Source: an uncultured Gemmatimonadota bacterium
GTDB lineage: Bacteria; JAAXHH01
Direction of reading: 5' to 3'
Length of the DNA stretch: 64,000 nucleotides
Assembly (NCBI GenBank): GCA_951812955.1
Contig: OX638340.1
Span: 1,536,001-1,600,000 of the forward strand
Of this stretch, positions 4,081-49,935 are shown piece by piece. A program made the position numbers and the translations under genes. The notes below the pieces were generated by a model. The model was given only the letters and a program-made list of their open reading frames with translations. It did not search any database and was not told where the DNA came from. How positions within the stretch are numbered: position 1 is the stretch's first letter; each line of letters starts with the position of its first letter.

Positions 4081-4118
4081 CCTGGTTAAAAACTGTAACC
4101 GGGTATGTTATTTTGCCT
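4081..4118. terminator. Putative bidirectional intrinsic terminator between convergent purK and the Sel1-repeat gene
   Basis: Hairpin CCUGGUUA-aaaacug-UAACCGGG (8 bp stem including one U-G pair) followed by the U-rich tract tatgttattttg. Confidence 0.45.
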
Positions 4119-5880
4119 GAGGAATGCGTTCGCGAAGAGTGTTTGTAAGGTCTTTAGCCTGTTCCAGCATGCTTTCAGTCATATTCTGTCTAACCAATTC
4201 CAGGTTATGAACCGCTTTGCTGTCTCCACGCTCCGCTGAGAGGCCGATCCAGGCATAGGCCTTCACGAGATCCCGCATGGCGCTGTCGCCGCTGAAGTGT
4301 ATGATACCCATATTCGTCATGGCTTCTATTTTTCCCTGTTCGGCGGCCTTCAGATACCAGTTTACCGCCTCACTGTCGTTTTCGGGTACTCCTCTGCCCT
4401 TGTCGTAATACAGACCGAGATTGAACTGTGCCATTTCATGACCCTGGTCTGCAGCCGCGCGAAACCACCGTAACGCTTCCGGATGGTTTGTCGGCCTGCC
4501 TTCACCGAAGGCATACATGACGCCTAGATTGTACCGGGCGCCCACGTGCCCCGCCTCAGCGGCCATGCGATACCATCGATACGCTTCGAACCAATTCTGC
4601 ACCACGCCATCTCCCATGTGGTACATATACCCCAGTCTCTCCTGCGCGTCATCGACACCCTGATCAGCAGCCAGGCGATACCATCGAACAGCTTCGGCAT
4701 TATCCTCGGGTACGCCTCTACCTCTGTCGTAAATGAATCCTAAGAGATACTGGGCTGACTTGTCACCCTGTTCCGCGGCTTTGCGAAACCAGAGGTGTGC
4801 TTCAGTTTTATCTTCGGGCACGCCATTGCCTCTGTCGTAAATCAGCGCTAAACTATACTGGGCTTCCGTATGGCCCTGCTCGGCCGCCTTGCGGTACCAG
4901 TGAGCTGCCCTGGTTGCGTCCTCCGGCACACCATCACCACGGGCATACCTGGCCGCAAGATAGTACTGGGCGTCCGCATGATCCTGCTCCGCGGCCTTAA
5001 GGTACCAGTAAGCCGCTTGATCTGAGTCCTCCGGCACACCATCGCCGAAGGCATATCGCGCTGCCAGATAGGTTTGGGCCTGGGCGTTCCCCTGCTCGGC
5101 GGCTCTGCGATACCAGTAGGCGGCCTGCGCGGCGTCCTCAGGTACGCCCTCGCCCTGCGCATACATGATGCCCAGGTTGATCTGAGCTGCATCATGATCC
5201 TGTTCCGCGGCTTTACGATACCAGTAAACAGCCTTTACATCGTCTATCGGCACGCCATCTCCGGTATCGTAAAAAAGGCCCAGAAAATACTGGGCAGAAT
5301 CAAATCCCTGTTCAGCAGCCCGGGTGAACCACGTTAATGCCTTCGCGGTTTCCGCCTCCACTCCGGTACCGTACTTATACATGTATCCGATTCTGACTTG
5401 TGCATATTCATATCCCTGTTCGGCGGCTTTTTCGAACCAGCCAAATGCCACGGAAGCATCCTCGTCGACACCGACTCCGGACATGTACATGGTACCCAAA
5501 CGGTACTGGGCTCTAGCATGATCCTGTTCGGCGGCCTTGAGGTACCACCTCGCCGCCACGGTTTCATCCTTTGCTACACCTCTGCCCCCAGCATACATGA
5601 ATCCGACATTGTACTGGGCATCCGCGTGGCCCTGATCGGCAGCTTCCGTAAACCACTTGAACGCTTCCTCGTAATCTTGATCCACTCCGGCACCGTCATA
5701 GTACATGTCACCAAGCGAGTTTTGCGCCTCGGCATCGCCTGCCAGCGCCGCTTGCCGAGTTTCCTCAAGGTTGGCTTCCTCCTGGCCAACCACCTGTGCG
5801 GGTAAAAACACCGAGACGACAAGAGCAAGTACCATGAATCCAGCCAACCGCCGAGATCGTACAATAGATTGCTTACCCAA
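4108..5880 (-). CDS. Secreted Sel1-repeat (SLR/TPR-like) protein, about 15 tandem 36-aa repeats
   Basis: N-terminal signal peptide, then the reiterated motif AQ(Y/F)xLGxMYxxGxGVxxDxxxAxxWYRKAAEQG. Confidence 0.85.
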   Translation of the reverse strand: MGKQSIVRSRRLAGFMVLALVVSVFLPAQVVGQEEANLEETRQAALAGDAEAQNSLGDMYYDGAGVDQDYEEAFKWFTEAADQGHADAQYNVGFMYAGGRGVAKDETVAARWYLKAAEQDHARAQYRLGTMYMSGVGVDEDASVAFGWFEKAAEQGYEYAQVRIGYMYKYGTGVEAETAKALTWFTRAAEQGFDSAQYFLGLFYDTGDGVPIDDVKAVYWYRKAAEQDHDAAQINLGIMYAQGEGVPEDAAQAAYWYRRAAEQGNAQAQTYLAARYAFGDGVPEDSDQAAYWYLKAAEQDHADAQYYLAARYARGDGVPEDATRAAHWYRKAAEQGHTEAQYSLALIYDRGNGVPEDKTEAHLWFRKAAEQGDKSAQYLLGFIYDRGRGVPEDNAEAVRWYRLAADQGVDDAQERLGYMYHMGDGVVQNWFEAYRWYRMAAEAGHVGARYNLGVMYAFGEGRPTNHPEALRWFRAAADQGHEMAQFNLGLYYDKGRGVPENDSEAVNWYLKAAEQGKIEAMTNMGIIHFSGDSAMRDLVKAYAWIGLSAERGDSKAVHNLELVRQNMTESMLEQAKDLTNTLRERIPQAK

Positions 5881-5977: not shown

Positions 5978-8050
5978 TCATTCGATTTCAGCCTGGTATA
6001 TCCTGTCGTGATACGTCTCGGCGAGCTTTTCCGCCTGGTCGATTTGTTCGGTGGACATGTAAATCCTGAAACTTTCAATGTTGCTATTGGCCAGACTGTC
6101 GCCCTGCACTGCGGCGACTTTAGTCCAGGCATAGCCCAGTATTTCGTTCTCCGGTACCCCTTTTGCATTGAAATAAAGATATCCCATGTTAATCTGTGCA
6201 TTCACAATACCCTGTTCCGCGGCCATTCTGTACCACAGAAGTGCTTCCTCTTCATTCTTTTGCACACCCTCACCATCCTCGTACAAGACCCCGAGATTGA
6301 ACTGAGCATCCCCATCACCCTGTACAGCTGCCTTGCGATACCACGAAGCGGCCTTATCATTGTTCTCCGGAACGCCGTTACCCAAATCGTATAAAAGTCC
6401 CAGGTTGAACTGGGCACCCGGATGTCCCTGGCCTGCCGACCTTGCATACCACCGTGCCGCTTCAGTGTAATCCTGAGGAAGGCCCAATCCGTTTTCGTGC
6501 ATATATCCTATATTGTTCTGGGCGTACGGTTCGTCCTGCTCCGCAGCCAAATTATACCACCTGATCGCGTCGGCATAATTCACCGGTACTCCGTAACCCT
6601 GTTCATACATGATACCCATGTTTAACTGCGCATCCCGATCTCCTTGGACTGCAGCCTTGTTGAACCAGGCCAGCGCCGCAGAATCATCTTGTGCAACCCC
6701 GTCACCCAACCTATACAAAATGCCCATTTTGTACTGGGCGAATACGTAATCCCGCTCTGCTGCGCGTTGAAACCACTGTGCAGCAAGCGATTTATCCAAT
6801 TCAACACCCAATCCATCTTCGTACATGACACCTAAGTTGTATTGGGCGATATAGTTTCCCTGGTCTGCAGCTTTTCTAACCCATTTTGCAGCCTCATTAA
6901 AGTCTCTCGGAACACCCTCTCCATTCTTGTACATAACTCCCAAAACATTCTGGGCATCCGCGTCCCCTTGTTCGGCAGCCTTACGATACCAGAAAACAGC
7001 CTCATCGTTCTGTTCTGGAACTCCCTCACCATTATCATACATGACCCCAAGACTGTACTGTGCATTCCCATTGCCCTGGTCTGCGGATTTTCGGTACCAA
7101 TTAACCGCTTTTTCGTCGGATTCCGGTACCCCCAGTCCTTCGTCGTACATGGATCCCAGGCTGTATTGTGAGCTTGAATGTCCCTGCTCGGCCGCCAGTC
7201 GGTACCAGTAAACTGCCTGCGCATCATCCTCCGGCACTCCGGTACCCAAATCGTATATCGCTCCGAGTTTGAACTGAGCATCCGAGTGATTCTGCTCAGA
7301 GGCCATACGATACCATATAACTGACTCGGCATCATCTTTCGAAATTCCTGTACCACCAAATTCGTACATCAATCCCATGTTATACTGGGCGGACGCATTC
7401 CCTTGCACAGCTGCTTTACGGTACCAACGGACTGCCTCGGTATCGTCTTCCTCTACGCCTAACCCGTTGTCATACATCAGGCCCAGGTTATTCTGCGCCA
7501 TGTTATGATCCTGCGTAGCAGCCTTAAGATACCACTCAACGGCTTTTGAGTCATCTTGCTCAACGCCGAGGCCATTAGCATAGAAAACCCCAATACCGAA
7601 TTGTGCGTCCGCGTCATTCTGCTCTGCAGACCTTAACATCCAGCGGAAACTCACAGAAGGATCACGTTGAACGCCTTCGCCATACAGGTACGCGTATCCC
7701 AGGTTGTACTGCGCGGCTGCATTATCCTTCTCAGCGGCTCTGCGATACCACTTCACCGCTTCTGCCGGGTCTTGGGGAACGCCATGACCACTGTCAATCA
7801 TAACACCAAGCATGAACTGGGCTTTTGCGTGATCCTGATCCGCAGCCTTACGATACCACACCAGTGCCGCAGAATAGTCCTCTTCTACACCATTGCCAAA
7901 GAAGTACATATCACCGAGCAAAACCTGAGCTTCTGTATCGCCCTGGCGCGCCGCCTGAAGTGTCTCATCGAAATCCGGCGACTCCTGTGCGGCTGACTGC
8001 GTGCTGAAGGCAGTCAGAATCGCCAAGGCAAGGTGTAGTGATTTCGTCAT
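5978..8050 (-). CDS. Secreted Sel1-repeat (SLR) protein, about 18 tandem repeats
   Basis: Signal peptide MTKSLHLALAILTAFSTQSAAQ. Same Sel1 consensus as the downstream paralogue. Confidence 0.85.
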   Translation of the reverse strand: MTKSLHLALAILTAFSTQSAAQESPDFDETLQAARQGDTEAQVLLGDMYFFGNGVEEDYSAALVWYRKAADQDHAKAQFMLGVMIDSGHGVPQDPAEAVKWYRRAAEKDNAAAQYNLGYAYLYGEGVQRDPSVSFRWMLRSAEQNDADAQFGIGVFYANGLGVEQDDSKAVEWYLKAATQDHNMAQNNLGLMYDNGLGVEEDDTEAVRWYRKAAVQGNASAQYNMGLMYEFGGTGISKDDAESVIWYRMASEQNHSDAQFKLGAIYDLGTGVPEDDAQAVYWYRLAAEQGHSSSQYSLGSMYDEGLGVPESDEKAVNWYRKSADQGNGNAQYSLGVMYDNGEGVPEQNDEAVFWYRKAAEQGDADAQNVLGVMYKNGEGVPRDFNEAAKWVRKAADQGNYIAQYNLGVMYEDGLGVELDKSLAAQWFQRAAERDYVFAQYKMGILYRLGDGVAQDDSAALAWFNKAAVQGDRDAQLNMGIMYEQGYGVPVNYADAIRWYNLAAEQDEPYAQNNIGYMHENGLGLPQDYTEAARWYARSAGQGHPGAQFNLGLLYDLGNGVPENNDKAASWYRKAAVQGDGDAQFNLGVLYEDGEGVQKNEEEALLWYRMAAEQGIVNAQINMGYLYFNAKGVPENEILGYAWTKVAAVQGDSLANSNIESFRIYMSTEQIDQAEKLAETYHDRIYQAEIE

Positions 8051-8218: not shown

Positions 8219-9310
8219 TTACACCATCCCCCTCAACAACCCAACCGCTTCATCCAGATACTCATCTTGAGTCAGATCCCCTTCGACCAGGTCGGGCCTG
8301 TGACCGCCCCACTGGGTAGCCAGTACCAGCGTCTCGCCGATATCCCATAGCGTCCACGCATTCGCGAAGACCGGCAGGCAGTCCATTTCCTGCTGCGTCA
8401 ATGGACGCACCCGGTTGTAGCCTTCCAGGAAACAACGCCAGATCTCGTCGGTCAAGTGATCGGGTACCGTCTCGATGATATTGTACAGGAAGGTCGCCAC
8501 GTCGTAGGACCGCCAGCCGAACGCACACTGGTCGAAGTCCAGGATGCAGTATCCGTTCTCGGGATGGTACAGGATGTTTCCGACGTGCAGGTCGGCATGG
8601 ATGAGACCGTATATCTCCTTGCCCTTGCCGAGCCCGTTGATTTGACGGCGCATGTGATCGGCGTAATCCTTGAAAAACGACAGGTCCTCTCCGCGCCGTT
8701 CTTTGAGAATGGATCCCAGCGTTTGCAACGGACCGTCCAGCAGGTATTGCAGATCAAAATGGTGACGACAATAAGGTTTCGGAAACTGATCCGCCCGCTG
8801 GTGGATTTCAGCCACAGCCGAACCGCAGGAGATCACGACCGGTTCGTTCACCTCGGGATGCCAGGTAACGTGCTCTTCGCCCTCGAAGAAGTGAAAGAGC
8901 GCACCGCATCGGGCACCGCCCGAGGTGTCTGTGGCAGCGCGCGGAGTATCCTCCATCACACTCAATCGCTGGCCGTCCAACCTTTCCACCGGATCGGGTA
9001 CGGCCAATTCGTACTCTCCCAGATATGCCAGCAGGTCGAGTTCGTACTGATAGGCCTCGGGATTACGGACGTAGAAGTCGTGGTCCGTATAGACCCTGTA
9101 AACGTATCGCCGACCCTTTGACGTAACGAGGTAGTTCCTGTTGGCTCCAGGCTCCAGTTCATTCACATCGATAGGTTCGGCGAGGCCGTAATGGGCCGCG
9201 AGGTAAGAAGCGATGGACGAGAGGGACGATTCTTGAGAATCCGAAGAATCCGAATGTCCGGATGAAGCAGAAGATGCGGATGATGCAGAAGAATCCATAG
9301 TCATCTCCAT
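8219..9310 (-). CDS. Phosphotransferase-family kinase (APH / homoserine-kinase-II / choline-kinase fold) with a Ser-rich low-complexity N-terminus
   Basis: Catalytic loop HADLHVGNILY and the Mg-binding ILDFDQCAFG (DFD) motif. N-terminal SSASSASSASSGHSDSSDSQESS tract. Confidence 0.7.
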   Translation of the reverse strand: MEMTMDSSASSASSASSGHSDSSDSQESSLSSIASYLAAHYGLAEPIDVNELEPGANRNYLVTSKGRRYVYRVYTDHDFYVRNPEAYQYELDLLAYLGEYELAVPDPVERLDGQRLSVMEDTPRAATDTSGGARCGALFHFFEGEEHVTWHPEVNEPVVISCGSAVAEIHQRADQFPKPYCRHHFDLQYLLDGPLQTLGSILKERRGEDLSFFKDYADHMRRQINGLGKGKEIYGLIHADLHVGNILYHPENGYCILDFDQCAFGWRSYDVATFLYNIIETVPDHLTDEIWRCFLEGYNRVRPLTQQEMDCLPVFANAWTLWDIGETLVLATQWGGHRPDLVEGDLTQDEYLDEAVGLLRGMV

Positions 9311-9384
9311 GATGGCGGTTTATACGGTTTTACTGTAATGTGTTTTGCAATCTTGACCGGGACAACAAGTTTAAGTTCATTGCT

Positions 9385-9479
9385 TGAATTGCGATGAGAT
9401 GCGTGAATCGCGATGAGATGCGTGAATCACGATGTACTGTGTGTATCACGGTGAACTGCGTGAATCACGGTAGGTTGCG
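9385..9479. repeat. Five tandem copies of a 19-bp unit TGAATCRCGRTGNNNTGCG in the divergent kinase/sulfatase promoter region
   Basis: Read directly: tgaattgcgatgagatgcg / tgaatcgcgatgagatgcg / tgaatcacgatgtactgtg / tgtatcacggtgaactgcg / tgaatcacggtaggttgcg. Confidence 0.8.
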
Positions 9480-9510: not shown

Positions 9511-10971
9511 TTGCCCAAACAACCCAATATCGTCGTCCTGATGTCCGATCAGCAGCGACTCGACACGGTGAGTTGCTACGGGCTGAACGACGTGTGCCGA
9601 ACGCCCCACATCGACGCCCTGGCCGCGCGCGGCGTCCGCTTCGACTGGGCATTCACGCCGACGGCGATCTGCTCACCGGCCCGCGCTTCCTTCTACACAG
9701 GCCTCTATCCGCACAAGCACGGCGTTTCTGCCAACGGTCTGTGCCTGAACGAAGGCGTGCGCGGGGTAAATCACTACCTGGCGGATGCAGGTTACCGTTG
9801 CGGGTACGCCGGCAAGTGGCACGTGGACCAGGAGACCGGTCCGTCCGGGTATGGGTTCACCGGCAAGGATTTCATGGGCTACGGATTCCCCGGAGGCCGC
9901 CTGCTGCCAGGCCTGCAGTTTGGCGGCAGTCTGCACGGACACAATCATTATGCCGATTATCTGAAAGAACATGGATATGACCCGCCACCCACGGTCTCGC
10001 ACCGCTTTGTCGGCACCAATCCCTCCAATCAACGGCAGGAGATGTTCGCCCTGCACGAAGGGCCGGTGGAGTCGTGCATCGAGTATTTCGTCGCCGAAGA
10101 GGCCAATCGCGTCCTCGACGAGGTGGCCACCGGAGAGGAGCCCTTCTTTCTGTGGGCCAATTTCTGGGGGCCGCACAGCCCTTCGCTGGTCCCGGAGCCC
10201 TACTTTTCAATGTATGATCCGAAGGCCATTCCCGAACACCCGGGATACGCCGAGACTTTCGAGAATAAGCCCTACAGGCAGCAATTAATCGAGAAGCTTT
10301 GGGGGCTCGGCGACTATGGATGGGAGGGTTTTCAGGAAATAGCCGCGCGCTACTTCGGGCACTGCACGCTCATCGACGACATGGTGGGGCGGGTGGTGGC
10401 TCACCTGGAAAAACTGGGTGTGCTCGACGACACCATCATTGTGTATACCGCCGATCACGGAGACTGCCTCGGCGCGCACAAGCTGATCGAGAAGGGCGAG
10501 TTCATGTACGATGAGATCTACCGCATACCCCTCGTCATCGCCCATCCCGATTGCCAGGCGCCCGGCACGGCCTGCGACGAGTTCGTCTACCTGCACGAAA
10601 TCATGCTCTCATCGCTCGACGCCGCAGGGCTCGAAGTACCCGCCGAACTCGACGGCCAGTCCTTCCTCCCAGCCATCGAGGGACGACCCTTTTCGAACGG
10701 CCGGGAAGAAGTCTACTGCGTGTTCGACCGCCATTTCACCGTCGCCAACCAGCGCATGGTCCGTACCCGGAAGCATCAGTTCACCTTCAATTCGGCCGAT
10801 CCGGGTGAGCTCTACGATCTGCAGCGCGACCCCTACCAGCTCGACAACGTATACGGTAAACCGGAATATGAAACCGTGCGACAGGACCTGATGGGGCGGA
10901 TGGATCGCTACATGGAGGATTTGGGCGATCCGTTGCGCGGATGGTATGGGCGAATCAAGGGGGCGTATTAG
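9511..10971 (+). CDS. Sulfatase (Cys-type, formylglycine-dependent arylsulfatase family)
   Basis: TTG start with GAGAGGAG RBS. IVVLMSDQQR N-terminus and the C-S-P-A-R (CxPxR) formylglycine motif. No obvious signal peptide. Confidence 0.9.
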   Translation: MPKQPNIVVLMSDQQRLDTVSCYGLNDVCRTPHIDALAARGVRFDWAFTPTAICSPARASFYTGLYPHKHGVSANGLCLNEGVRGVNHYLADAGYRCGYAGKWHVDQETGPSGYGFTGKDFMGYGFPGGRLLPGLQFGGSLHGHNHYADYLKEHGYDPPPTVSHRFVGTNPSNQRQEMFALHEGPVESCIEYFVAEEANRVLDEVATGEEPFFLWANFWGPHSPSLVPEPYFSMYDPKAIPEHPGYAETFENKPYRQQLIEKLWGLGDYGWEGFQEIAARYFGHCTLIDDMVGRVVAHLEKLGVLDDTIIVYTADHGDCLGAHKLIEKGEFMYDEIYRIPLVIAHPDCQAPGTACDEFVYLHEIMLSSLDAAGLEVPAELDGQSFLPAIEGRPFSNGREEVYCVFDRHFTVANQRMVRTRKHQFTFNSADPGELYDLQRDPYQLDNVYGKPEYETVRQDLMGRMDRYMEDLGDPLRGWYGRIKGAY

Positions 10972-29233: not shown

Positions 29234-29425
29234 GACATTGTTAGAAAGTAACATAAAAAACAAAAACGCCCGGCCCTGGATTAAACCGCTCCAGGACCGG
29301 GCTTTTTTCTGTATTGAACAGCGCATCTTTCGTCTCGCGCTGACGTTCAGGACAAGTCTGAGCACACGCGCACTCACGCCCACACTCTCACGCGCTCACA
29401 TCCACGCCCCCACTCACGCTTACAC

Positions 29426-41386: not shown

Positions 41387-42241
41387 TCACTGAAAACGCA
41401 CACCCGCCTTCGCTGCGGATTCCACCAGAAACCGCCTGACCTCCTCCACCTGTCCATAGTCGGTCAGGTGTTCCACGACCACACACGTCCATTCCGGCAA
41501 GGCCGAAGCGCGGCACAACAGGCGCCCGTAGTCCAGCACGCCCTGTCCGGCGGGCCGTTCCTCGAGGTGTACGATCGACTGTACCTCCCGGGCCGCCGAG
41601 TCCTTGGCGTGGACGTTCACGATTCGGCTTCCAAGGCGGTCGAAGGCATCGTCCATAAAAGCGCCCGAATCATACAGCGAAAGGGGATCGAGGATGTTGG
41701 CCGGATCGAAGTTGATGCCGACTCCGGGTTGGTCGATCTCCTCTAAAAGCGCTACGGCGCGGTCCACGGTGGACAGGATCGTCATGAGCGACATCTCCGG
41801 CGCGACGGATATGCCGAAATCGGCCGCGAACGGCGCGATTTCCTTCAACGCGACGGCCAGACGATCCAGCGCTTCCTCGCCGTGATTCTCCAGATGGGGA
41901 TACCATGCGTTCGCGGGGTGCATGCCCCCGGCCTCCGTGAGTAACACCCGGCAACCGAGGGCCGCGGCCAGGGGCACGCGATCCCGCAGGATCTGCAAGT
42001 GGGCCGCCGATTCACCAGGATCCGGACGCACGAACGGAGTGCCCACGCTCCAGACCTGGCCGATGGCGATCCCTTCCCCGTCCAGGATCTTTCGGACCTT
42101 GCCGGCAGCGTCCTTATCGACGGCGACGGACCGTTCCAGGTCCACGCCCACCGCGGAGAAACCAAGGTCCCTGATCCAGCTCGCGGTCCCCTTCGTGATC
42201 CGGTCGAGCGGCGGAACGAAACTATCCAGGCAGAGTCTCAT
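41387..42241 (-). CDS. Sugar phosphate isomerase/epimerase (xylose-isomerase-like TIM barrel)
   Basis: AP-endonuclease-2 / TIM-barrel pattern (LGCRVLLTEAGG ... INFDPANI ... HAKD). Start placed at ATG 42241 (MRLCLD); the track ORF uses TTG 42253. Confidence 0.7.
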   Translation of the reverse strand: MRLCLDSFVPPLDRITKGTASWIRDLGFSAVGVDLERSVAVDKDAAGKVRKILDGEGIAIGQVWSVGTPFVRPDPGESAAHLQILRDRVPLAAALGCRVLLTEAGGMHPANAWYPHLENHGEEALDRLAVALKEIAPFAADFGISVAPEMSLMTILSTVDRAVALLEEIDQPGVGINFDPANILDPLSLYDSGAFMDDAFDRLGSRIVNVHAKDSAAREVQSIVHLEERPAGQGVLDYGRLLCRASALPEWTCVVVEHLTDYGQVEEVRRFLVESAAKAGVRFQ

Positions 42242-42289
42242 GGGAGATTCCAAATAACTGATTAACGCTTGTTTAATGAGTTAGTTACG

Positions 42290-42399
42290 CGGATGATCGA
42301 GTGCTGCCGCACGGATGACAGAGCGCCGCCTTACGGATGATCGAGCGCTGCCGCACGGATGATTGAGTGCTGCAACACGGATGATCGGGCGCTACCGCG
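42290..42399. repeat. Five tandem copies of a 22-bp unit CGGATGATCGAGYGCTGCCGCA upstream of an AT-rich promoter
   Basis: Read directly: cggatgatcgagtgctgccgca / cggatgacagagcgccgcctta / cggatgatcgagcgctgccgca / cggatgattgagtgctgcaaca / cggatgatcgggcgctaccgcg. Confidence 0.8.
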
Positions 42400-42407
42400 T
42401 GAAGAAA

Positions 42408-42437
42408 TTGACACTTTTGTATGTAATTTCATAATAT
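42408..42437 (+). promoter_or_regulatory. Candidate sigma-70-type promoter for the methyltransferase gene at 42512
   Basis: TTGACA (42408-42413), a 17-18 nt spacer, then the A/T-rich -10-like ATAATAT. The 42400-42480 stretch is strongly AT-rich. Confidence 0.3.
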
Positions 42438-42511
42438 ATGTATATTGAACGTGCGCAATAACGTATGCAATTATATTACGATTCCGCGCGAAGGCATATG
42501 CGAAGGAGGGC

Positions 42512-43153
42512 ATGCCGGTGAGCAGCAAGGAATTCTTTGATCGCGTCGCCCCGGACTGGGACGAAATGCGCGAGGGGTATTATTCCGAGGACGTCAGGGT
42601 GGGCGCCCTGGCGGCCGCAGCGGTCGAGAAGGGCAAAATCGCCGCGGACATCGGCGCCGGTACGGGCTTTATTTCGCAGGGTCTGATCGAGGAAGGGCTT
42701 CAGATCATCGCGGTCGACCAGTCAGAGGTCATCCTGAATGAAATGAAGGAAAAGTTCGCCCGATGGTCATCGATCGAATATCGCGTAGGGAACGCCCAGG
42801 ATATACCGATTCCTGATGAAACGGTCGACTACGCCTTTGCCAATATGTGTCTCCACCACGTTGAATCACCGCCTGTCGCCATCCGGGAAATGACAAGAAT
42901 CCTGAAACCGGCAGGAAAACTGGTGATCACGGACGCGGACGAGCATGAATTCGAGTTTCTGCGCGAAGAGCACCATGACCGCTGGCTGGGTTTCAAACGA
43001 TCCGATATCAGATCATGGTATCTGGAAGCGGGACTGGGAGAGGTAAGTGTCGAAAGCATAGGCTCCCTATGCGAAGTGCAGTCTTTATGTTGTGAAGAAT
43101 TCGCCCGTATCGGGATATTCGTGGCCTCGGGAGAGAAACGCGCAGGGCGTTGA
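42512..43153 (+). CDS. Class I SAM-dependent methyltransferase
   Basis: GGAGGG RBS. Motif I DIGAGTGF, and a LKPAGKLVITD motif. Confidence 0.8.
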   Translation: MPVSSKEFFDRVAPDWDEMREGYYSEDVRVGALAAAAVEKGKIAADIGAGTGFISQGLIEEGLQIIAVDQSEVILNEMKEKFARWSSIEYRVGNAQDIPIPDETVDYAFANMCLHHVESPPVAIREMTRILKPAGKLVITDADEHEFEFLREEHHDRWLGFKRSDIRSWYLEAGLGEVSVESIGSLCEVQSLCCEEFARIGIFVASGEKRAGR

Positions 43154-43256: not shown

Positions 43257-45107
43257 ATGCATCCTGCCACCGAACATATACACCTCGCCATCTGTCCTGA
43301 TCACAAGGCGCTTTCGCGGACCGTTGCCAGGGAGATCGTCGGGTACGCCCAGGCGCGCGCCGAGGCGGGGAAGATGGCCGTACTGGGCCTTTGTACGGGA
43401 TCCACGCCCATCGACGTGTACGGGGAACTGATCGCGCTGCACCGCGGCGGCGTCAGTTTCGAGAACATCGTCACCTTCAACCTCGACGAATACTACCCCA
43501 TGTCGCGGCAGTCGACCCAGAGTTACCACCGCTACATGCAGGAGTATCTCTTCGACCATGTGAACATACCCGAAGACCAGGTCTACATCCCGTTGGGCGA
43601 CCTCGCGCCGGAGGAGATCGAGGACCACTGCGCATGGTACGAGGAACGTATCCGATCCGTGGGCGGCATCGGCATCCAGCTCCTGGGCATCGGGCGCACC
43701 GGCCATATCGGGTTCAACGAGCCCGGTTCCCTGCCGAACACGCGCACCCGGTTGATCCGCCTGGACGAGAGTACCCGCAAGGACGCCGCTTCCGATTTCT
43801 TCGGCGAGGACAACGTGCCCATCGAGGCGGTGACCATGGGCGTCGGCACCATCCTCGACGCGGAACGCATCATCCTCATGGCCACGGGCGAGCACAAGGC
43901 GCCCATCATCCGCAAGGCGGTGGAGGGCGAGGTCAGTCCGCTCGTGGCGGCCAGTTACCTTCAGAACCATCCGAACACGACGTTCTTCATCGATCCGCCC
44001 GCGTCCAGCGAACTGACCCGGGTAAAGCGGCCCTGGCTGAACAACCACGCGGTGGAATGGTCCGACCAGCTTTCGCAACGGGCCGTGCTCTGGCTTTGCG
44101 AGCAGGCGGAGAAGCCCGTATTGCACCTGCAGCGCCGGGACTACAACGCATACGACCTCTACTCCCTGGTGGATACCGTCCAGACAGTCGACGAACTCAA
44201 CCGGAAGACCTTCGACGCGGTCCGCGCCAAGATCTACGGCCGCGAGGACTTTTTCACCAACAAGCGCTGCGTCTGCTTCTCGCCTCATCCGGACGACGAC
44301 GTCATCTCCATGGGCGGCACGCTGTACCGGTTGTCCGGCGCCGGGAACGACATTACCATCGCTTACATGACCAGCGGGAACATCGCCGTATTCGACGAAG
44401 ACGTGAAGCGGCTTATCGATTTCATCGGCCTGACCTTCCGGGACCTGGGATGCGCCCACGCGAAGTTCGACGGAATCGTGGATACGGTGAGTTCCTTCAT
44501 CGAGACGAAACTGCCCGGACAGGTGGATATCCCCGAAGTCCAGATCATCAAGACCAACATCCGCCGGTCCGAAGCCATCGCGGCGGCGTCGACGCTGAAC
44601 ATCCCGCCGGAAAAGACCCGGTTCCTGGACCTGCCCTTCTACAAGACCGGGCAGGTGAAGAAGCATCCCATCGGCGATGAAGACGTGCGGATCGTCCTCG
44701 ATATCCTGAACGACGTCCGTCCGGAAGTTGTTTTCGTCGCCGGCGACCTCTCCGACCCGCACGGAACCCACCGCATATGCAAGGAAGTCATCGACCGGGC
44801 CCTCACTGTCTACGACAGGACGGACCCCGACGTGTGGCTTTACCGGGGCGCGTGGCAGGAGTGGGAAGTGGACGAGGCGGACGTGTTCATTCCCCTCTCG
44901 TACGAAGATCTCCAACGCAAGATCCAGGCCATATTCCGGCACGAATCCCAGAAGGATACCGCCATGTTCCCCGGTGCGTACGACGACAGGGAGTTCTGGG
45001 AGCGGGTGCAGGACCGGAATACCCACACGGCTCGGCGTCTAGACAAACTGGGTTTCCCCCAGTACTACGCCATGGAAGCCTTCGTCCTCGAGCGCGGCGG
45101 GGCGTGA
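43257..45107 (+). CDS. nagB: Two-domain glucosamine-6-phosphate deaminase-like protein: NagB/SIS-type deaminase N-domain fused to an LmbE/PIG-L-like deacetylase-fold C-domain (the NagB-II architecture described in Bacteroidota)
   Basis: LGLCTGSTP...TFNLDEYY...GIGRTGHIGFNEPGS (NagB), then the C-terminal PHPDDDVISMGGT LmbE-like motif. Start placed at internal ATG 43257; the track start 43092 would overlap the previous gene by 60 nt. Confidence 0.75.
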   Translation: MHPATEHIHLAICPDHKALSRTVAREIVGYAQARAEAGKMAVLGLCTGSTPIDVYGELIALHRGGVSFENIVTFNLDEYYPMSRQSTQSYHRYMQEYLFDHVNIPEDQVYIPLGDLAPEEIEDHCAWYEERIRSVGGIGIQLLGIGRTGHIGFNEPGSLPNTRTRLIRLDESTRKDAASDFFGEDNVPIEAVTMGVGTILDAERIILMATGEHKAPIIRKAVEGEVSPLVAASYLQNHPNTTFFIDPPASSELTRVKRPWLNNHAVEWSDQLSQRAVLWLCEQAEKPVLHLQRRDYNAYDLYSLVDTVQTVDELNRKTFDAVRAKIYGREDFFTNKRCVCFSPHPDDDVISMGGTLYRLSGAGNDITIAYMTSGNIAVFDEDVKRLIDFIGLTFRDLGCAHAKFDGIVDTVSSFIETKLPGQVDIPEVQIIKTNIRRSEAIAAASTLNIPPEKTRFLDLPFYKTGQVKKHPIGDEDVRIVLDILNDVRPEVVFVAGDLSDPHGTHRICKEVIDRALTVYDRTDPDVWLYRGAWQEWEVDEADVFIPLSYEDLQRKIQAIFRHESQKDTAMFPGAYDDREFWERVQDRNTHTARRLDKLGFPQYYAMEAFVLERGGA

Positions 45108-45377
45108 CGTCCCCTCGGTGCGTTCGAGGCGTTTTTAACATGCGACGCGCCGGCCTCGGCCTCCCGACGAACCCCTCGAAAAGCAGTTGCTCTCCCGATC
45201 TTCAATCCATTATATTGGCCTGCTTGCTTGACGGCACCTGACCGGGGTCGCGACGGCGCTGAGATCCCGCACGGTGACATCCGCACGTCGAACGATCAGG
45301 ATGTCGAATCAAACTGGGTGTTGAACGATCCGGAAGTAGAACCATCGCCCGGGAACCGGGGACCATCGGAGGCACAA

Positions 45378-46325
45378 GTGCGCATAGCGGTATTCGGTAC
45401 AGGAGGCGTAGGCGGCTACTATGGAGGACGGCTTGCCGAGGCAGGAGAGGAAGTCGTATTCATCGCACGCGGCGAGCATCTGGAAGCCCTGCGGCAGAAC
45501 GGCATCCGCGTGGAAAGCACGAAGGGTGATTTCACGCTGCCCTCCATCGAAGCCATCGGGGATCCAAGGGAAGCCGGCGACGTGGACGTCGTCATGCTTT
45601 GCGTCAAGTGCTGGCAGGTGCCCGAAGCCCTCGACGGTCTCCGGCCCTTGCTCGGACCCGATACCTGTATCCTGCCCATGGAGAACGGGGTGGAGACGCC
45701 GGAGCAACTCGCCGCGGAGTTCGGCTGGCGGCACGTACTCGGCGGCGTCTGCGGGATCGTCTCGTTCATCGCCGAACCGGGTCTCATCCGGCATGTCGCC
45801 TACGAACCATTTGTCAATTTCGGGGAATGGGACAACCGCAGCAGCGAACGGGTCGACCGGTTGCGCCTGGCATTCGATCGCGCCAGGGGACTCATCGTCG
45901 ATACGCCGCCGGATATTCAGGCCGCCATGTGGCGCAAGTACATCCTCATCGCTTCGTGGAGCGGGATCGGCGGCGTGACCCGCGCGCCGATTGGCATCGT
46001 CCGCAGCCAGCCCGGCACCCGGCGGCTCCTCGAGACGGCCATGGAGGAGATCCACCGCGTGGCCACCGCCGTGGGCATCAGCCTGCCGGACGACATCGTA
46101 GCCCGGACCCTGGCCATTCTGGACAGCGTCGAATACGGCGGCACCGCCTCCATGCAGCGGGATATCATGGAAGGTAGATTCTCCGAGTTGGAAGCCCAGA
46201 CTGGCGCGCTGGTCCGCATGGGCAGGGAAGCGGGCGTGCCCACGCCGGTCAACGATTTCGTGTACCATTCGCTGCGGCCGATGGAACTTCGAACCCGAAA
46301 GCAGGTATCCTTCGAGACGCCCTGA
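45378..46325 (+). CDS. panE: 2-dehydropantoate 2-reductase (ketopantoate reductase, ApbA/PanE family)
   Basis: GTG start with a GGAGG RBS. IAVFGTGGVGGYYGG Rossmann motif and the ApbA C-terminal domain. Confidence 0.75.
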   Translation: MRIAVFGTGGVGGYYGGRLAEAGEEVVFIARGEHLEALRQNGIRVESTKGDFTLPSIEAIGDPREAGDVDVVMLCVKCWQVPEALDGLRPLLGPDTCILPMENGVETPEQLAAEFGWRHVLGGVCGIVSFIAEPGLIRHVAYEPFVNFGEWDNRSSERVDRLRLAFDRARGLIVDTPPDIQAAMWRKYILIASWSGIGGVTRAPIGIVRSQPGTRRLLETAMEEIHRVATAVGISLPDDIVARTLAILDSVEYGGTASMQRDIMEGRFSELEAQTGALVRMGREAGVPTPVNDFVYHSLRPMELRTRKQVSFETP

Positions 46326-46612
46326 GTCGCGGGCAGTATACATTCAGGGTCCGGAGTCGCGGGCAGTATCGTTTCAGGCGCACTGTGGCGCCCGGGGCGC
46401 GACCCGAGACGATCCGAGACGACCCGAGACTCATCTGACGACCGAGGCGCGATGTGGCGCCCGGGGTACGACCCGAGACTCATCTGACGACCGAGGCGCA
46501 CTGTGGCGCCCGGGGTACGACCCGAGACTCATCTGACGACCGAGGCGCGATGTGGCGCCCGGGGCGCGACCCGAGACGACCCGAGATGATCCGAGACACA
46601 TCTGACGACCGA
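46324..46612. repeat. Complex intergenic repeat array. It has two copies of GAGTCGCGGGCAGTAT, then four copies of a ~49-bp unit. Each unit contains a GGCGC-n6-GCGCC hairpin and GACCCGAGAC sub-repeats.
   Basis: Units GGCGC(a/g)(c/a)TGTGGCGCCCGGGG(t/c)(a/g)CGACCCGAGACTCATCTGACGACCGA begin near 46376, 46443, 46492 and 46541. The first and last units carry extra GA(C/T)CCGAGAC copies. Confidence 0.8.
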
Positions 46613-46635
46613 ACCGGCCTGCCGGAGCAACCCGC

Positions 46636-47634
46636 ATGAAGTCATTTCTTGAACGCATTGCCGACGATCGTCCCCTCCTTTACGACGGCGGTTTCGGCAC
46701 CGAGCTCTTCGTCCGGGGCATCGAACTGGCCAACAGCGCACTGGCCAACGAACTTTACCCCGACATTGTCAGAGACATCCATTTCGATTATATTGAAGCA
46801 GGCGCGGAAGTGGTGGGAACGAATACGTTCGTGGCGTCTTATCCCCATCTCGAAATGGCCGGGAAGGACGCCTCGGAATCCGAGCAGCTGATCCGGCTTT
46901 CCTTGGAACACGCCCGAGCCGCCATCGAGCGAAGCGGCAGGGAGGTGTACCTGGCCGGTTCCATCGGACCATTGCCGGGCGCCATCGAGGCCGACAGCGG
47001 CGACACGGAGTTCGGCATTGCCAACAGCATCGCCCGGGACGCCCACGAGCGCGTGGGAACGGTCCTGGCGGCAGGCGGGGTGGATTTCTTCTGTGTCGAG
47101 ACCATGTTCTCCGCCAACGAGGCGGCCCTGGCCATCGACGTATTGAGGCAGTTCGGCCTGCCCATCGCCGTGAACCAGACGTACAAATATACGAAGGACC
47201 GCGCCACGGGCGAGGTCGTTTACAAGACCGACTGGGGTCATTCGGCAGCCGATCTCCTGGAGATCCTGGCAGGCGGCGCGCAGTCTGGCGGTGGCGACCT
47301 GCTCGAGCATGTGCAGATCGTCGGCCTGAACTGCGGGGCGGAATCCCGGCGCGACGAGCACACGGGCATGCCTTACGCCATCAGCGGCATCGGCCAGTTG
47401 AAACGCGCCATGGAAGCCAGGGCAGAGGAACCGAAACGCATGATGGCCTACCCGAACGCCGGGAAGGCGCGTCTCGATGAGCAGCACCGGACCTATTACG
47501 ACAATACCCCGGAAGAGATGGCGGCCTCCGTACCGAATCTCCTCGAGGCCGGCGCTTTCTTCATCGGCGGCTGCTGCGGCACGGGCGTCGCCCACATCCG
47601 GGCCTTCCGCGAAGCGATGGACAGGATGGCATGA
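46636..47634 (+). CDS. Stand-alone homocysteine S-methyltransferase-domain protein (Pfam S-methyl_trans, like the MetH N-terminal Hcy-binding module), with zinc-thiolate ligands conserved
   Basis: DGGFGTEL N-terminus. Conserved Cys in VGLNCGAE and the GGCCGT motif (FFIGGCCGTGV). Confidence 0.85.
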   Translation: MKSFLERIADDRPLLYDGGFGTELFVRGIELANSALANELYPDIVRDIHFDYIEAGAEVVGTNTFVASYPHLEMAGKDASESEQLIRLSLEHARAAIERSGREVYLAGSIGPLPGAIEADSGDTEFGIANSIARDAHERVGTVLAAGGVDFFCVETMFSANEAALAIDVLRQFGLPIAVNQTYKYTKDRATGEVVYKTDWGHSAADLLEILAGGAQSGGGDLLEHVQIVGLNCGAESRRDEHTGMPYAISGIGQLKRAMEARAEEPKRMMAYPNAGKARLDEQHRTYYDNTPEEMAASVPNLLEAGAFFIGGCCGTGVAHIRAFREAMDRMA

Positions 47635-47904: not shown

Positions 47905-47994
47905 GGACGCGACGGGCAAGGAGCAAATGCGGCGGGCAGTTATCAAGTCCGTCCGCAACCAGCCACAGCAATGGTCGGACGCGACGGGCAAGGA
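47905..47994. repeat. Two direct copies of a ~22-bp element GGACGCGACGGGCAAGGAGCA(N)GGGCAG, 67 bp apart
   Basis: ccggacgcgacgggcaaggagcaaatgcggcgggcag and tcggacgcgacgggcaaggagcaggaccgggcag, immediately upstream of the ORF at 48035. Confidence 0.7.
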
Positions 47995-48034
47995 GCAGGA
48001 CCGGGCAGCATCGAAAACGTAAGAGGCGGCAGAT

Positions 48035-48751: not shown

Positions 48752-49795
48752 ATGAGCGACGACCTCATCAGGGAGATGAAGGGCCGGGATCGGGTGCTGG
48801 CCGCCCTCAGGCGGGAGCCCGTGGATCGCACGCCCGTATGCAATCCGACGTCTGTCGCCACGGTGGAGCTGATGGACCTGGTCGACGCCCCCTTTCCGGA
48901 TGCCAACCGGGACCCGGAACTGATGGCCCGGCTGGCGGCCACCGGGTACACCGAGCTGGGTTTCGACAGCATCATGCCGGTCTTCACCATTATCCAGGAA
49001 TCCTCCGCGCTGGGCTGCAAGATCCAGTGGGAGCAAAAGGACAACTGGCCCACGGTTAAGATGCGCGAGCCTATCTGGGAAGACGTGGACGACATCAACG
49101 TCCCGTCCGATTTCCTTACGCACCAGGACACGAAATGCGTCCTCGACGCCATCAGCCTGCTCAAAAAGGAATACGGCGACGAGGTGGCCATCATCGGCAA
49201 GACCATGGGGCCGTGGTCGCTGGGTTACCACTGCTTCGGCGTGGAGCCCTTCCTGCTCATGTCCCTGGATGACCCCGGGAAGACCCACCTCGCCCTCGAC
49301 CGTATGAAGGAGGCCACAGTGGAGTTCGGCATCGCGCAGATCGAGGCCGGGGCGGACGCCCTGACCCTGCCGGACCACGCCACGGGCGACCTGGTGAGCG
49401 GCGAGTATTACCGGCGGTTCCTGAGGGACCTGCACATCGAACTCGTCGAACGGATCCCCATCCCGCTGATCATGCACATCTGCGGAAGGACCGTGGACCG
49501 CATGGGCTACATCGCGGAGACCGGCTTCGCAGCCTTTCACTACGATTCGAAAAACAAGCCCCAGGAATCCATGGAGGCCGTGGACGGCCAGATATCCCTC
49601 GTGGGCAACATCAACAACCCCGAGACGCTCTTCGCACGGGGTCCCGAAGAGGTGACCGGGGAAGTTTGCAGAAACCTGGAGCACGGGATTCACATGGTGG
49701 GACCGGAATGCGCGGTACCCCTCCAGGCGTCCATCGAGAACCTGAAGGCGATCCCCCAGGCCGTGAAAGACTGGCACCGCACACACGCGGCTTGA
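48752..49795 (+). CDS. Uroporphyrinogen-decarboxylase (URO-D) family methyltransferase, MtaA/MtbA/CmuA-like (corrinoid-dependent methyl transfer)
   Basis: URO-D/MtaA fold. HxC zinc motif (PLIMHICGRT) plus a downstream Cys (GPECAVP). Confidence 0.8.
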   Translation: MSDDLIREMKGRDRVLAALRREPVDRTPVCNPTSVATVELMDLVDAPFPDANRDPELMARLAATGYTELGFDSIMPVFTIIQESSALGCKIQWEQKDNWPTVKMREPIWEDVDDINVPSDFLTHQDTKCVLDAISLLKKEYGDEVAIIGKTMGPWSLGYHCFGVEPFLLMSLDDPGKTHLALDRMKEATVEFGIAQIEAGADALTLPDHATGDLVSGEYYRRFLRDLHIELVERIPIPLIMHICGRTVDRMGYIAETGFAAFHYDSKNKPQESMEAVDGQISLVGNINNPETLFARGPEEVTGEVCRNLEHGIHMVGPECAVPLQASIENLKAIPQAVKDWHRTHAA

Positions 49796-49935
49796 GGCGC
49801 AAAGGAGTCAGCTGTACGCGAGGCGCAAAGGCCACGCATTGAAAACGGGATCAGCCGCAGCGGCCGGTGCGGTCCGACTCACCGCGCGGCAGGCGGCAAA
49901 ATCGGCATGAACCAGGGAGGACCGGGAAGAAGCGC

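What the first reader, a model, noticed from the sequence alone, without database searches (positions are those of the whole stretch)
46324..46612. Array of four ~49-bp tandem repeats, each with a GGCGC-n6-GCGCC hairpin, plus GACCCGAGAC micro-repeats, between panE and the corrinoid cluster
Seen in sequence: the units are near-identical and alternate two variants (cactgtg / cgatgtg loops; cgcg / gtac after the hairpin). The end units carry extra GA(C/T)CCGAGAC copies, and a separate duplicated 16-mer GAGTCGCGGGCAGTAT lies just upstream. The units abut directly with no unique spacers, and no cas genes are present, so this is not a CRISPR. Established knowledge: REP/BIME-like palindromic repeat clusters act as terminators, mRNA stabilisers or protein-binding sites. 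Inference: a REP-like element or a repeated operator/attenuator in the leader of the methyltransferase operon.
Basis: partly seen in the sequence, partly recalled or inferred. Interest (0 to 1): 0.5.

Follow-up and report, generated by a model that had tools for sequence, protein, structure and literature searches.

The report
Private variable hairpin minisatellite after panE
The repeat array is real, but it is an ordinary, dispensable tandem repeat that grew out of the stop-codon region of the upstream gene: close relatives carry 0, 1, 2 or 3 units at the same spot, and it occurs nowhere else.

Summary
Window 46324-46612 holds a duplicated 16-mer, four hairpin units (spacing 69/49/49 bp), eight GA(C/T)CCGAGA(C/T) 10-mers and four CATCTGACGACCGA tails. 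They fill the 310-bp spacer between panE (stop 46325) and a homocysteine-S-methyltransferase-family gene (ATG 46636) that heads a corrinoid methyltransferase cluster.

The same spacer in 12 related assemblies holds 4, 3, 2, 2, 2, 1 or 0 hairpin units (spacers of 310 to 30 bp). The three array-less genomes sit inside the array-bearing clade (bootstrap 190/200). Their junction is what recombination between the panE end GAGACGCCCTGA and the near-identical unit tail would leave. In one relative a 31-bp unit that contains the panE stop codon is repeated four times. The array therefore arose by local tandem duplication and can be lost cleanly.

The unit occurs at no other site in a related 3.9-Mb chromosome or in 150 kb of related DNA. 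It has no Rfam match, no excess folding energy, no covariation, no U-tract and no promoter.

Verdict: a locus-private, copy-number-variable minisatellite. It looks like MIRU or REP elements in form and position but belongs to neither family. It is not an essential operator or attenuator. Neighbouring spacers carry similar stop-codon-anchored repeats. Interest is low.

The parts
45378..46325 (+). panE/ApbA ketopantoate-reductase-family gene (GTG start with a GGAGG Shine-Dalgarno sequence upstream). Its last 12 nt, GAGACGCCCTGA (46314-46325), are the template of the unit tails.
   Evidence: Pfam ApbA and ApbA_C. Relatives have a 315-aa gene call. Sequence.
46321..46378 (+). Two copies of a 28-30-bp unit holding the 16-mer GAGTCGCGGGCAGTAT (46324-46339 and 46354-46369). 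The first copy overlaps the panE stop codon.
   Evidence: the repeat finder family D3. Exact 16-mer twice. The same duplication is in sister locus L036. The homologous 31-bp unit, which includes the stop codon, is repeated 4.2 times in L041.
46376..46444 (+). Hairpin unit 1 (69 bp): AGGCGC-ACTGTG-GCGCC, CGGGGCGC, three 10-mers (46401-46430), tail TCATCTGACGACCG.
46445..46493 (+). Hairpin unit 2 (49 bp): loop GATGTG, CGGGGTAC, one 10-mer, tail.
46494..46542 (+). Hairpin unit 3 (49 bp): loop ACTGTG, CGGGGTAC, one 10-mer, tail.
46543..46611 (+). Hairpin unit 4 (69 bp): loop GATGTG, CGGGGCGC, three 10-mers (46568-46597), tail ACATCTGACGACCG.
46612..46635 (+). Unique 24-nt end of the spacer, with GGAG (46624-46627) 8 nt before the ATG. 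It is kept in all relatives, including those without the array.
46636..47634 (+). Homocysteine S-methyltransferase-family gene, first gene of the corrinoid methyltransferase cluster. The cluster continues with a PF13769 gene, an unknown gene, a URO-D-like gene, a B12-binding corrinoid protein and RACo, up to 52873.
   Evidence: Pfam. The same gene order is found in relatives.

Best explanation
The array is a locus-private, copy-number-variable minisatellite in the intercistronic spacer between panE and the first gene of the corrinoid methyltransferase cluster.

Origin (inferred). It arose by serial tandem duplication of the short segment that spans the panE stop codon and a GC hairpin just downstream. 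The likely mechanisms are slipped-strand mispairing or unequal recombination.

Dynamics. It expands and contracts in several registers (10, 30/31, 49, 57, 61 and 69 bp). It can be excised cleanly by recombination between the panE end (GAGACGCCCTGA) and the near-identical tail of the last unit.

Function. It is dispensable and has no dedicated regulatory role. If panE and the methyltransferase gene are co-transcribed, which is inferred and not shown, its only expected effect is to lengthen the untranslated spacer from 30 to 310 nt and add up to four 5-8-bp GC stem-loops. The Shine-Dalgarno sequence and the last 24 nt stay untouched.

Shown: presence or absence and copy number across relatives, derivation from local sequence, absence elsewhere. 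Inferred: the duplication mechanism, co-transcription and neutrality.
For: 1. Copy number varies at the orthologous site. There are 4 units in the window (310-bp spacer), 3 in L036 (257 bp), 2 in L015/L042 (165 bp), L040 (150 bp) and L041 (258 bp), 1 degenerate unit in L033 (114 bp), and 0 in L032/L034/L035 (30 bp).

2. Loss is derived. In a neighbour-joining tree of 2 kb of flanking panE and methyltransferase DNA, the array-less loci group with the window and L036 in 190 of 200 bootstraps, and the in-group is recovered in 200 of 200. Every deeper in-group lineage carries the array.

3. The array is built from local sequence. In L041 a 31-bp unit CGCCCTGAGTCGCGGGCGGAACCGTTTCAGG, which contains the panE stop codon, is repeated 4.2 times starting 5 nt before the stop. 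In L040 the last unit ends in CGAGACGCCCTGA, identical to the panE terminus. The empty sites read ...GAGACGCCCTGA|CGACCGAGCCGG..., which is the expected product of recombination between those direct repeats.

4. It is not dispersed. There is one locus only in the related 3.9-Mb chromosome OY762445.1, no true relatives in the metagenome scan, and no hits outside this spacer in the window or in 150 kb of related DNA.

5. There is no sign of a structured RNA or a signal. Rfam gives nothing. Folding z-scores are +0.3 on both strands and -0.8 for a single unit. Stem pairs show no covariation above shuffles. There is no sigma-70-like promoter and no U-tract after the hairpins.

6. The same behaviour is seen in neighbouring spacers of the cluster. 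Private repeats start at the upstream stop codon and vary in copy number.
Against: - The GGCGC/GCGCC stem is intact in 12 of 14 units from six lineages. One unit has a G-U wobble and one a mismatch. At least one unit is retained in most lineages, so weak selection for a hairpin cannot be excluded. At 94-97% identity this conservation has almost no statistical power.
- Neutrality is inferred from dispensability, not measured.
- Only one related complete chromosome was scanned, and only with an exact 19-base pattern. Diverged copies elsewhere could have been missed.
- The source genome outside the 64-kb window could not be searched.
- The promoter scan covers sigma-70-type consensus only, and the organism's phylum is unresolved.
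Confidence: 0.65

Rival explanations
1. REP-like intercistronic RNA element with tunable dosage. The hairpins are transcribed within a panE-methyltransferase mRNA. They would act as barriers to 3'-exonucleases, or as partial attenuators or ribosome-stalling structures near the stop codon. Copy number would then set the expression ratio of panE to the downstream cluster.
For: - It is extragenic, palindromic and short, lies inside a probable operon and starts at the stop codon. These are the position and form reported for REPs that stabilise upstream mRNA, attenuate transcription or stall ribosomes near stop codons (PMC12306157).
- A hairpin directly after the panE stop is also present in an outgroup: GTTGC-GGAAG-GCAAC in L043.
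- The stem is kept in 12 of 14 units.
Against: - Three close relatives do without any unit.
- There are no compensatory changes and folding is no better than shuffles.
- There is no expression data.
- Arrays are identical between assemblies at 99.9% flank identity (L015 vs L042). Change is therefore slow, not contingency-like.
Confidence: 0.2
2. Array of operator sites. A dimeric regulator would bind the GGCGC-N6-GCGCC palindromes on DNA and control the methyltransferase cluster.
For: Each unit holds a 16-bp perfect inverted repeat, and at least two sites are present in most lineages.
Against: - There is no promoter-like site in or after the array, and only 24 nt remain to the ATG.
- Site spacing is 49, 57, 61 or 69 bp, which gives no consistent helical phasing.
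- No regulator gene lies in the cluster.
- Sister genomes lack all sites.
Confidence: 0.05
3. A small non-autonomous mobile element (MITE-like) inserted at CTGA after the panE stop and later duplicated.
For: Filled and empty sites differ by a clean block bounded by CTGA or CCTGA direct repeats.
Against: - No terminal inverted repeats were found.
- There are no other copies in a 3.9-Mb related chromosome or in 150 kb of related DNA.
- The direct repeat is really a 12-13-nt homology to the panE end, and the empty sites are phylogenetically derived.
- In L041 the units contain the panE stop codon itself.
Confidence: 0.04
4. Assembly artefact: the copy number, or the whole array, was created by mis-assembly.
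For: Tandem repeats can be collapsed or expanded by assemblers, and the raw reads are not available here.
Against: - The longest exact internal repeat is only 48 nt, and units differ at diagnostic positions.
- Homologous arrays with 1-3 units occur in six independent assemblies, including contigs of 0.06 to 3.9 Mb.
Confidence: 0.02

Closest known systems
MIRU-type minisatellites (mycobacterial interspersed repetitive units, MIRU-VNTR loci) of Mycobacterium tuberculosis
   Same: Both are tandem repeats with units of tens of bp. MIRUs are 46-101 bp (PMC3914561) and the units here are 49-69 bp. Both lie in a GC-rich genome, mostly in intergenic regions that are thought to be transcribed within polycistronic operons (PMC3635867). 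In both, copy number differs between strains.
   Different: MIRUs are one sequence family scattered at 41 loci. This unit is private to one spacer. The neighbouring spacers carry unrelated private repeats. The unit here is visibly derived from the adjacent gene end.
REP/BIME elements (repetitive extragenic palindromes) of enterobacteria and pseudomonads
   Same: Both are short GC-rich extragenic palindromes, often clustered, located 3' of genes or between genes of an operon. Any effect here would plausibly use the same mechanisms reported for REPs: an exonuclease barrier, attenuation, or ribosome stalling near the stop codon (PMC12306157).
   Different: REPs are defined by many near-identical copies per genome, and that is not met here. 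BIMEs alternate inverted REP orientations, whereas here all units are direct, head-to-tail. From my own knowledge, and not tested here, REPs are associated with a RAYT transposase and a conserved GTAG head, neither of which was seen.
Generic bacterial VNTR / tandem duplication hot spot
   Same: The region shows head-to-tail duplication in several registers, expansion and contraction between strains, and clean deletion between direct repeats.
   Different: Nothing essential differs. The special features are the hairpin in each unit, the anchoring on a stop codon, and the density of such arrays in this gene cluster.

Membership tests
REP/BIME | Extragenic location; seldom overlaps coding sequence (PMC12306157) | tested here: met
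   The array lies between the panE stop at 46325 and the methyltransferase ATG at 46636.
REP/BIME | Short palindrome (14-40 nt) able to form a stem-loop | tested here: met
   GGCGC-N6-GCGCC is 16 nt, or 23 nt with the CCG/CGG extension. It is predicted as a hairpin in the folds.
REP/BIME | Multiple highly similar copies dispersed over the genome | tested here: not met
   The exact hairpin pattern hits the related 3.9-Mb chromosome OY762445.1 only at this spacer. There are no other copies in the 64-kb window at up to 3 mismatches, and none in 150 kb of related DNA with an nhmmer profile. The rest of the source genome could not be searched.
MIRU-type minisatellite | Tandem repeats with units of about 46-101 bp | tested here: met
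   Units of 49 and 69 bp in the window, 57 bp in L036 and 61 bp in L015.
MIRU-type minisatellite | Copy number polymorphic between strains | tested here: met
   0, 1, 2, 3 or 4 units at the orthologous site in genomes 94-97.5% identical in the flanks.
MIRU-type minisatellite | Intergenic, within an operon, and transcribed as part of a polycistronic mRNA | tested here: inconclusive
   The flanking genes are on the same strand. The spacer is only 30 nt in array-less relatives, and no promoter or terminator consensus lies in the array. Transcription itself cannot be tested with these tools.
MIRU-type minisatellite | Same repeat family interspersed at many loci (41 in H37Rv) | tested here: not met
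   The unit is confined to one locus. Neighbouring spacers hold unrelated repeat sequences.
CRISPR array | Direct repeats separated by unique spacers of similar length | tested here: not met
   Units abut directly. All sequence between hairpins is itself repeated.
Intrinsic terminator | GC-rich hairpin followed by a U-tract | tested here: not met
   The hairpins are followed by CGGGG. The consensus scan finds only a weak site at 46349-46364 and a good one outside the array at 45113-45129.
Known cis-regulatory RNA or riboswitch (Rfam 15) | Match to a curated covariance model | tested here: not met
   There were no matches at gathering score over the whole window, and none at E up to 10 over 46100-46800.
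MITE | Terminal inverted repeats, target-site duplication and multiple genomic copies | tested here: not met
   No inverted repeats were reported in 46200-46700. It is single-locus. The flanking direct repeat is a 12-13-nt homology to the panE end, not a target-site duplication.

The most novel reading that the evidence does not exclude
The array may be one example of a lineage-wide habit. In this uncultured bacterial lineage almost every intercistronic spacer of the cluster carries its own private minisatellite. Each begins on or just before the upstream stop codon and leaves the downstream ribosome-binding site untouched. These repeats could be products of a specific stop-proximal, hairpin-driven duplication process. 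They could also be kept as evolvable 'spacers' that tune polarity or mRNA decay between genes of an operon. That would be a non-dispersed analogue of MIRUs.
Probability: 0.12. Interest if true: 0.55.

Novelty: new member of a known kind. Interest (0 to 1): 0.22.

Why it matters
The practical value is modest.

- The spacer is a ready-made VNTR marker that separates strains of this uncultured lineage (0-4 units).
- It is a clear natural example of how an intergenic repeat array is born from a gene's stop-codon region and later erased through the same short homology.
- It warns against reading tandem hairpin arrays upstream of operons as operators or riboswitches without comparative evidence.

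If the stop-codon anchoring seen in four spacers of this cluster proved to be genome-wide, it would raise two questions. One is what mechanism favours duplications at stop-proximal hairpins. The other is whether spacer length tunes operon polarity.

Tried and rejected
- **Rfam.** Searched at gathering score over the window and at E up to 10 over the region. Nothing was found.
- **Exact look-up of the window's methyltransferase and its 100%-identical database twin P0001.** Neither is on record, so the source contig could not be fetched.
- **Metagenome scan with the hairpin pattern.** It gave only two single hits, read here as chance matches lying in apparently coding sequence.
- **The other 28 genome-contig hits.** These are single matches in unrelated GC-rich genomes and are treated as chance.
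- **Whole-spacer and single-unit RNA folding, both strands.** Neither folds better than shuffles.
- **Covariation test of the stem.** It is uninformative: pairs are invariant or change on one side only.
- **Small ORFs bridging stop and start, as in MIRUs.** Every unit carries a TGA that rotates through the frames. Only a 61-codon GTG ORF (46454-46639) remains, and it is an accident of this array. Rejected.
- **Sigma-54-type GG-N10-GC promoter just before the ATG.** Read by eye, the spacing is off by one and it sits about 10 nt from the start codon. Rejected.
- **CRISPR, intrinsic terminator and MITE readings.** All rejected; see the membership tests.
- **Taxonomy.** It could not be resolved. 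The nearest named homologues are MAG labels: Zixibacteria at 90%, Gemmatimonadetes at 89%, and Latescibacteria and Poribacteria at 65-71%. The cluster look-up gave no names.

Full report

Yes.
- The 16-mer GAGTCGCGGGCAGTAT sits at 46324 and 46354. The first copy overlaps the TGA of the upstream gene.
- There are four hairpin units beginning at 46376, 46445, 46494 and 46543.
- The 10-mer GA(C/T)CCGAGA(C/T) occurs in runs of 3, 1, 1 and 3.
- Each unit ends in (T/A)CATCTGACGACCG.

The tools agree. TRF gives period 49, 3.2 copies, 94% matches and score 290. The repeat finder gives three 61-nt copies at 97-100% identity and shows that the two 69/70-nt end units match each other at 91%. The 22-nt hairpin core occurs four times against 0.02 expected, and nowhere else in the window even with three mismatches. 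The tail occurs four times and the 16-mer twice.

There are two small corrections. The end units are 69 bp, not 49. In units 2-4 the stem can extend to 8 pairs with a bulged A.

**2. Gene context**

Pfam gives this order on the + strand:
- a NagB/PIG-L fusion gene, ending at 45107;
- panE/ApbA, 45378-46325;
- the array;
- a homocysteine-S-methyltransferase-family gene, 46636-47634;
- a PF13769 gene, an unknown gene, a URO-D-like methyltransferase, a B12-binding corrinoid protein and RACo.

A hairpin with a T-run follows the NagB/PIG-L stop at 45113-45129. No sigma-70-like promoter and no hairpin with a U-tract lies in the array. The last 24 nt before the ATG, which include GGAG, are unique sequence.

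**3. Is the unit found elsewhere?**

Rfam finds nothing.

An exact scan of 185,579 species-representative genomes with GGCGCNNTGTGGCGCCCGGGG gave 29 stretches. Twenty-eight are single hits in unrelated GC-rich genomes. The other is L015, on the 3.9-Mb chromosome OY762445.1 of an unnamed MAG, with two hits 61 bp apart. L015 is the orthologous locus, 94.6-94.8% identical over 8 kb, and it is the only hit on that chromosome.

The metagenome scan gave two single hits that I read as chance matches in apparently coding sequence. An nhmmer profile of the unit, run against the window plus 13 related loci (150 kb), hits only this spacer.

The unit is therefore not a dispersed family.

**4. What do the orthologous spacers look like?**

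I fetched the same locus from relatives using homologues of the methyltransferase and their contigs. Gene order is identical in all of them. The spacer from the panE stop to the methyltransferase ATG is as follows.

| Locus | Spacer (bp) | Content |
|---|---|---|
| window | 310 | 4 hairpin units, duplicated 16-mer |
| L036 | 257 | 3 hairpin units, duplicated 16-mer |
| L041 | 258 | 2 hairpin units, plus 4.2 copies of a 31-bp unit |
| L015, L042 | 165 | 2 hairpin units |
| L040 | 150 | 2 hairpin units |
| L033 | 114 | 1 unit, stem degenerate |
| L032, L034, L035 | 30 | no unit |
| L037 (outgroup) | 36 | no unit |
| L043 (outgroup) | 43 | no unit |
| L038, L039 | 124 | unrelated GCG-rich repeat |

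**5. Direction of change**

A neighbour-joining tree of about 2 kb of flanking panE and methyltransferase DNA places the array-less L032, L034 and L035 with the window and L036. Their identity to the window is 96.7-97.5%. Every deeper in-group lineage (L033, L041, L040, L015/L042) carries the array.

The clade {window, L036, L032, L034, L035} is recovered in 190 of 200 bootstraps, and the in-group in 200 of 200. The empty state is therefore a derived deletion, not an unoccupied insertion site.

L015 and L042 come from different assemblies, are 99.9% identical in the flanks and have identical arrays. Change thus happens on the scale of about 1-3% divergence, not within clones.

**6. How was the array built and lost?**

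This part is inference from the sequences.
- In L041 the 31-bp unit CGCCCTGAGTCGCGGGCGGAACCGTTTCAGG is repeated 4.2 times, starting 5 nt before the panE stop. It contains the last codons and the TGA of panE.
- What follows the last copy, GCGCACTGCAGCGCCCGGGG, starts like a further diverged copy. By my own hand alignment, the hairpin core shares 17 of 23 positions with the GCGCCCTGAGTCGCGGGCGG unit.
- The unit tail CCGAGAC-(G/T)C(A/C)(C/T)-CTGA mirrors the panE terminus TTCGAGAC-GCC-CTGA. In L040 the two share an exact 13-mer, CGAGACGCCCTGA.
- The empty sites read GAGACGCCCTGA|CGACCGAGCCGG. That is the expected product of recombination or slippage between those two direct repeats.

Duplications are visible in at least six registers (10, 30/31, 49, 57, 61 and 69 bp). 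The region is a duplication and deletion hot spot seeded by the stop-codon region and its hairpin.

**7. Does it look functional?**

- Folding of the whole spacer is no more stable than dinucleotide shuffles (z +0.32 and +0.36 on the two strands). The same holds for single units (z -0.8).
- Across 14 units from six lineages the five core pairs are invariant, apart from one G-U wobble and one mismatch. Nothing exceeds the shuffles. At this divergence conservation says little either way.
- Site spacing has no constant helical phase. No regulator gene is nearby, and no promoter consensus is present.
- Three close relatives live with a 30-nt spacer and no unit.

The most likely account is a dispensable minisatellite whose only consequence is a longer, hairpin-studded intercistronic spacer. 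A REP-like effect on mRNA decay or polarity remains possible and is the main rival. That rival follows the mechanisms reviewed in PMC12306157.

**8. Comparison with known families**

In form, position and strain-to-strain polymorphism the array resembles MIRU minisatellites. Those are 46-101-bp units at 41 loci, mostly intergenic and presumed to be transcribed within operons (PMC3914561; PMC3635867). It also resembles REP/BIME clusters. It fails the defining multi-locus dispersal of both families. It also fails the tests for CRISPR, intrinsic terminator, Rfam RNA and MITE.

It is best filed as a new, private example of an ordinary bacterial VNTR or minisatellite.

**9. Seen on the way**

Other spacers of the same cluster behave alike.
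- Repeats of 18, 35, 51 or 53 bp start at or before the NagB/PIG-L stop. In L037 a 51-bp unit holding the last 13 codons is repeated 6.2 times.
- A 26-bp unit starts on the TGA of the URO-D-like gene. It has 1.5 copies in the window and 2.4-4.5 in relatives.
- 26-bp repeats follow the PF13769 gene.
- The more distant L043 has short spacers and no arrays.

This hints at a lineage-specific tendency toward stop-anchored tandem duplication. That is the most novel reading left open, and I give it about 12%.

**10. Verdict**

Novelty is low (new member of a known kind) and interest is about 0.2.

Noticed in passing
window 42290-42398 (and 42405-42440): Five copies of a 22-bp unit, CGGATGATCGAGCGCTGCCGCA. 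They lie directly upstream of an AT-rich stretch with a near-consensus TTGACA-N17-ATAATA promoter-like site. The array sits in the divergent spacer between a xylose-isomerase-like TIM-barrel gene (41387-42253, - strand) and a UbiE-like methyltransferase gene (42512-43153, + strand). It looks like an activator or operator site array.
   Followed up: no
window 45287-45346; L040 1788-1871, L037 1896-1979 and others: 16-bp repeats in the panE 5' leader. The consensus in relatives is CATCCGGATGTCGAAC, which contains the 10-bp palindrome CATCCGGATG. There are 3-5 copies, and the repeats are kept even in L037, which is 82% identical in the flanks. In the window they are degenerate. This array is more conserved than the one in the finding, so it is a better candidate for a real binding-site array.
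   Followed up: partly
window 49794-49832; L032 7137-7200, L033 7136-7225, L036 6137-6199, L040 6154-6270: A 26-bp unit, GAGGCGCAAAGGAATCAGCTGTACGC, starts on the TGA of the URO-D-like methyltransferase gene. It has 1.5 copies in the window and 2.4-4.5 copies in relatives. This is a second stop-codon-anchored variable repeat in the same cluster.
   Followed up: partly
L037 1429-1742; L040 1446-1620; L033 2604-2684; L041 126-243: Tandem repeats begin inside the last codons of the NagB/PIG-L gene. In L037 the unit is 51 bp, repeated 6.2 times, and includes the last 13 codons plus the stop. In the other loci the periods are 18, 35 or 53 bp. The window has a single copy followed by a hairpin and T-run terminator at 45113-45129.
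   Followed up: partly
window 9381-9469: A 19-bp unit, TGCGTGAATCACGATGAAC, repeated 4.7 times. It lies in the divergent spacer between a minus-strand ORF (8219-9310) and the ORF at 9511-10971, which looks like a sulfatase from its N-terminal sequence (my reading; no Pfam scan was run).
   Followed up: no
window 29373-29415: A 14-bp unit, CTCACGCCCACACT, repeated about 3 times. It lies 10 nt beyond the stop at 29426 of a minus-strand ORF of 1,026 aa that I take to be an RND-type efflux pump from its N-terminal sequence (not tested). A strong hairpin with a T-run at about 29267-29310 follows the convergent gene.
   Followed up: no
window 47905-47925 and 47978-47998: The 21-mer GGACGCGACGGGCAAGGAGCA occurs twice, 73 bp apart, starting 5 nt after the stop of the PF13769 gene. 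Relatives have 26-bp tandem repeats at the same place (L033 5259-5339, L040 4287-4369).
   Followed up: no
window 4700-5125: 108-bp (36-codon) repeats lie inside large minus-strand ORFs (4108-5880 and 5978-8050) with lower GC3 (0.54-0.58) than the surrounding genes. They probably encode Sel1/TPR-like repeat proteins, possibly acquired horizontally.
   Followed up: no
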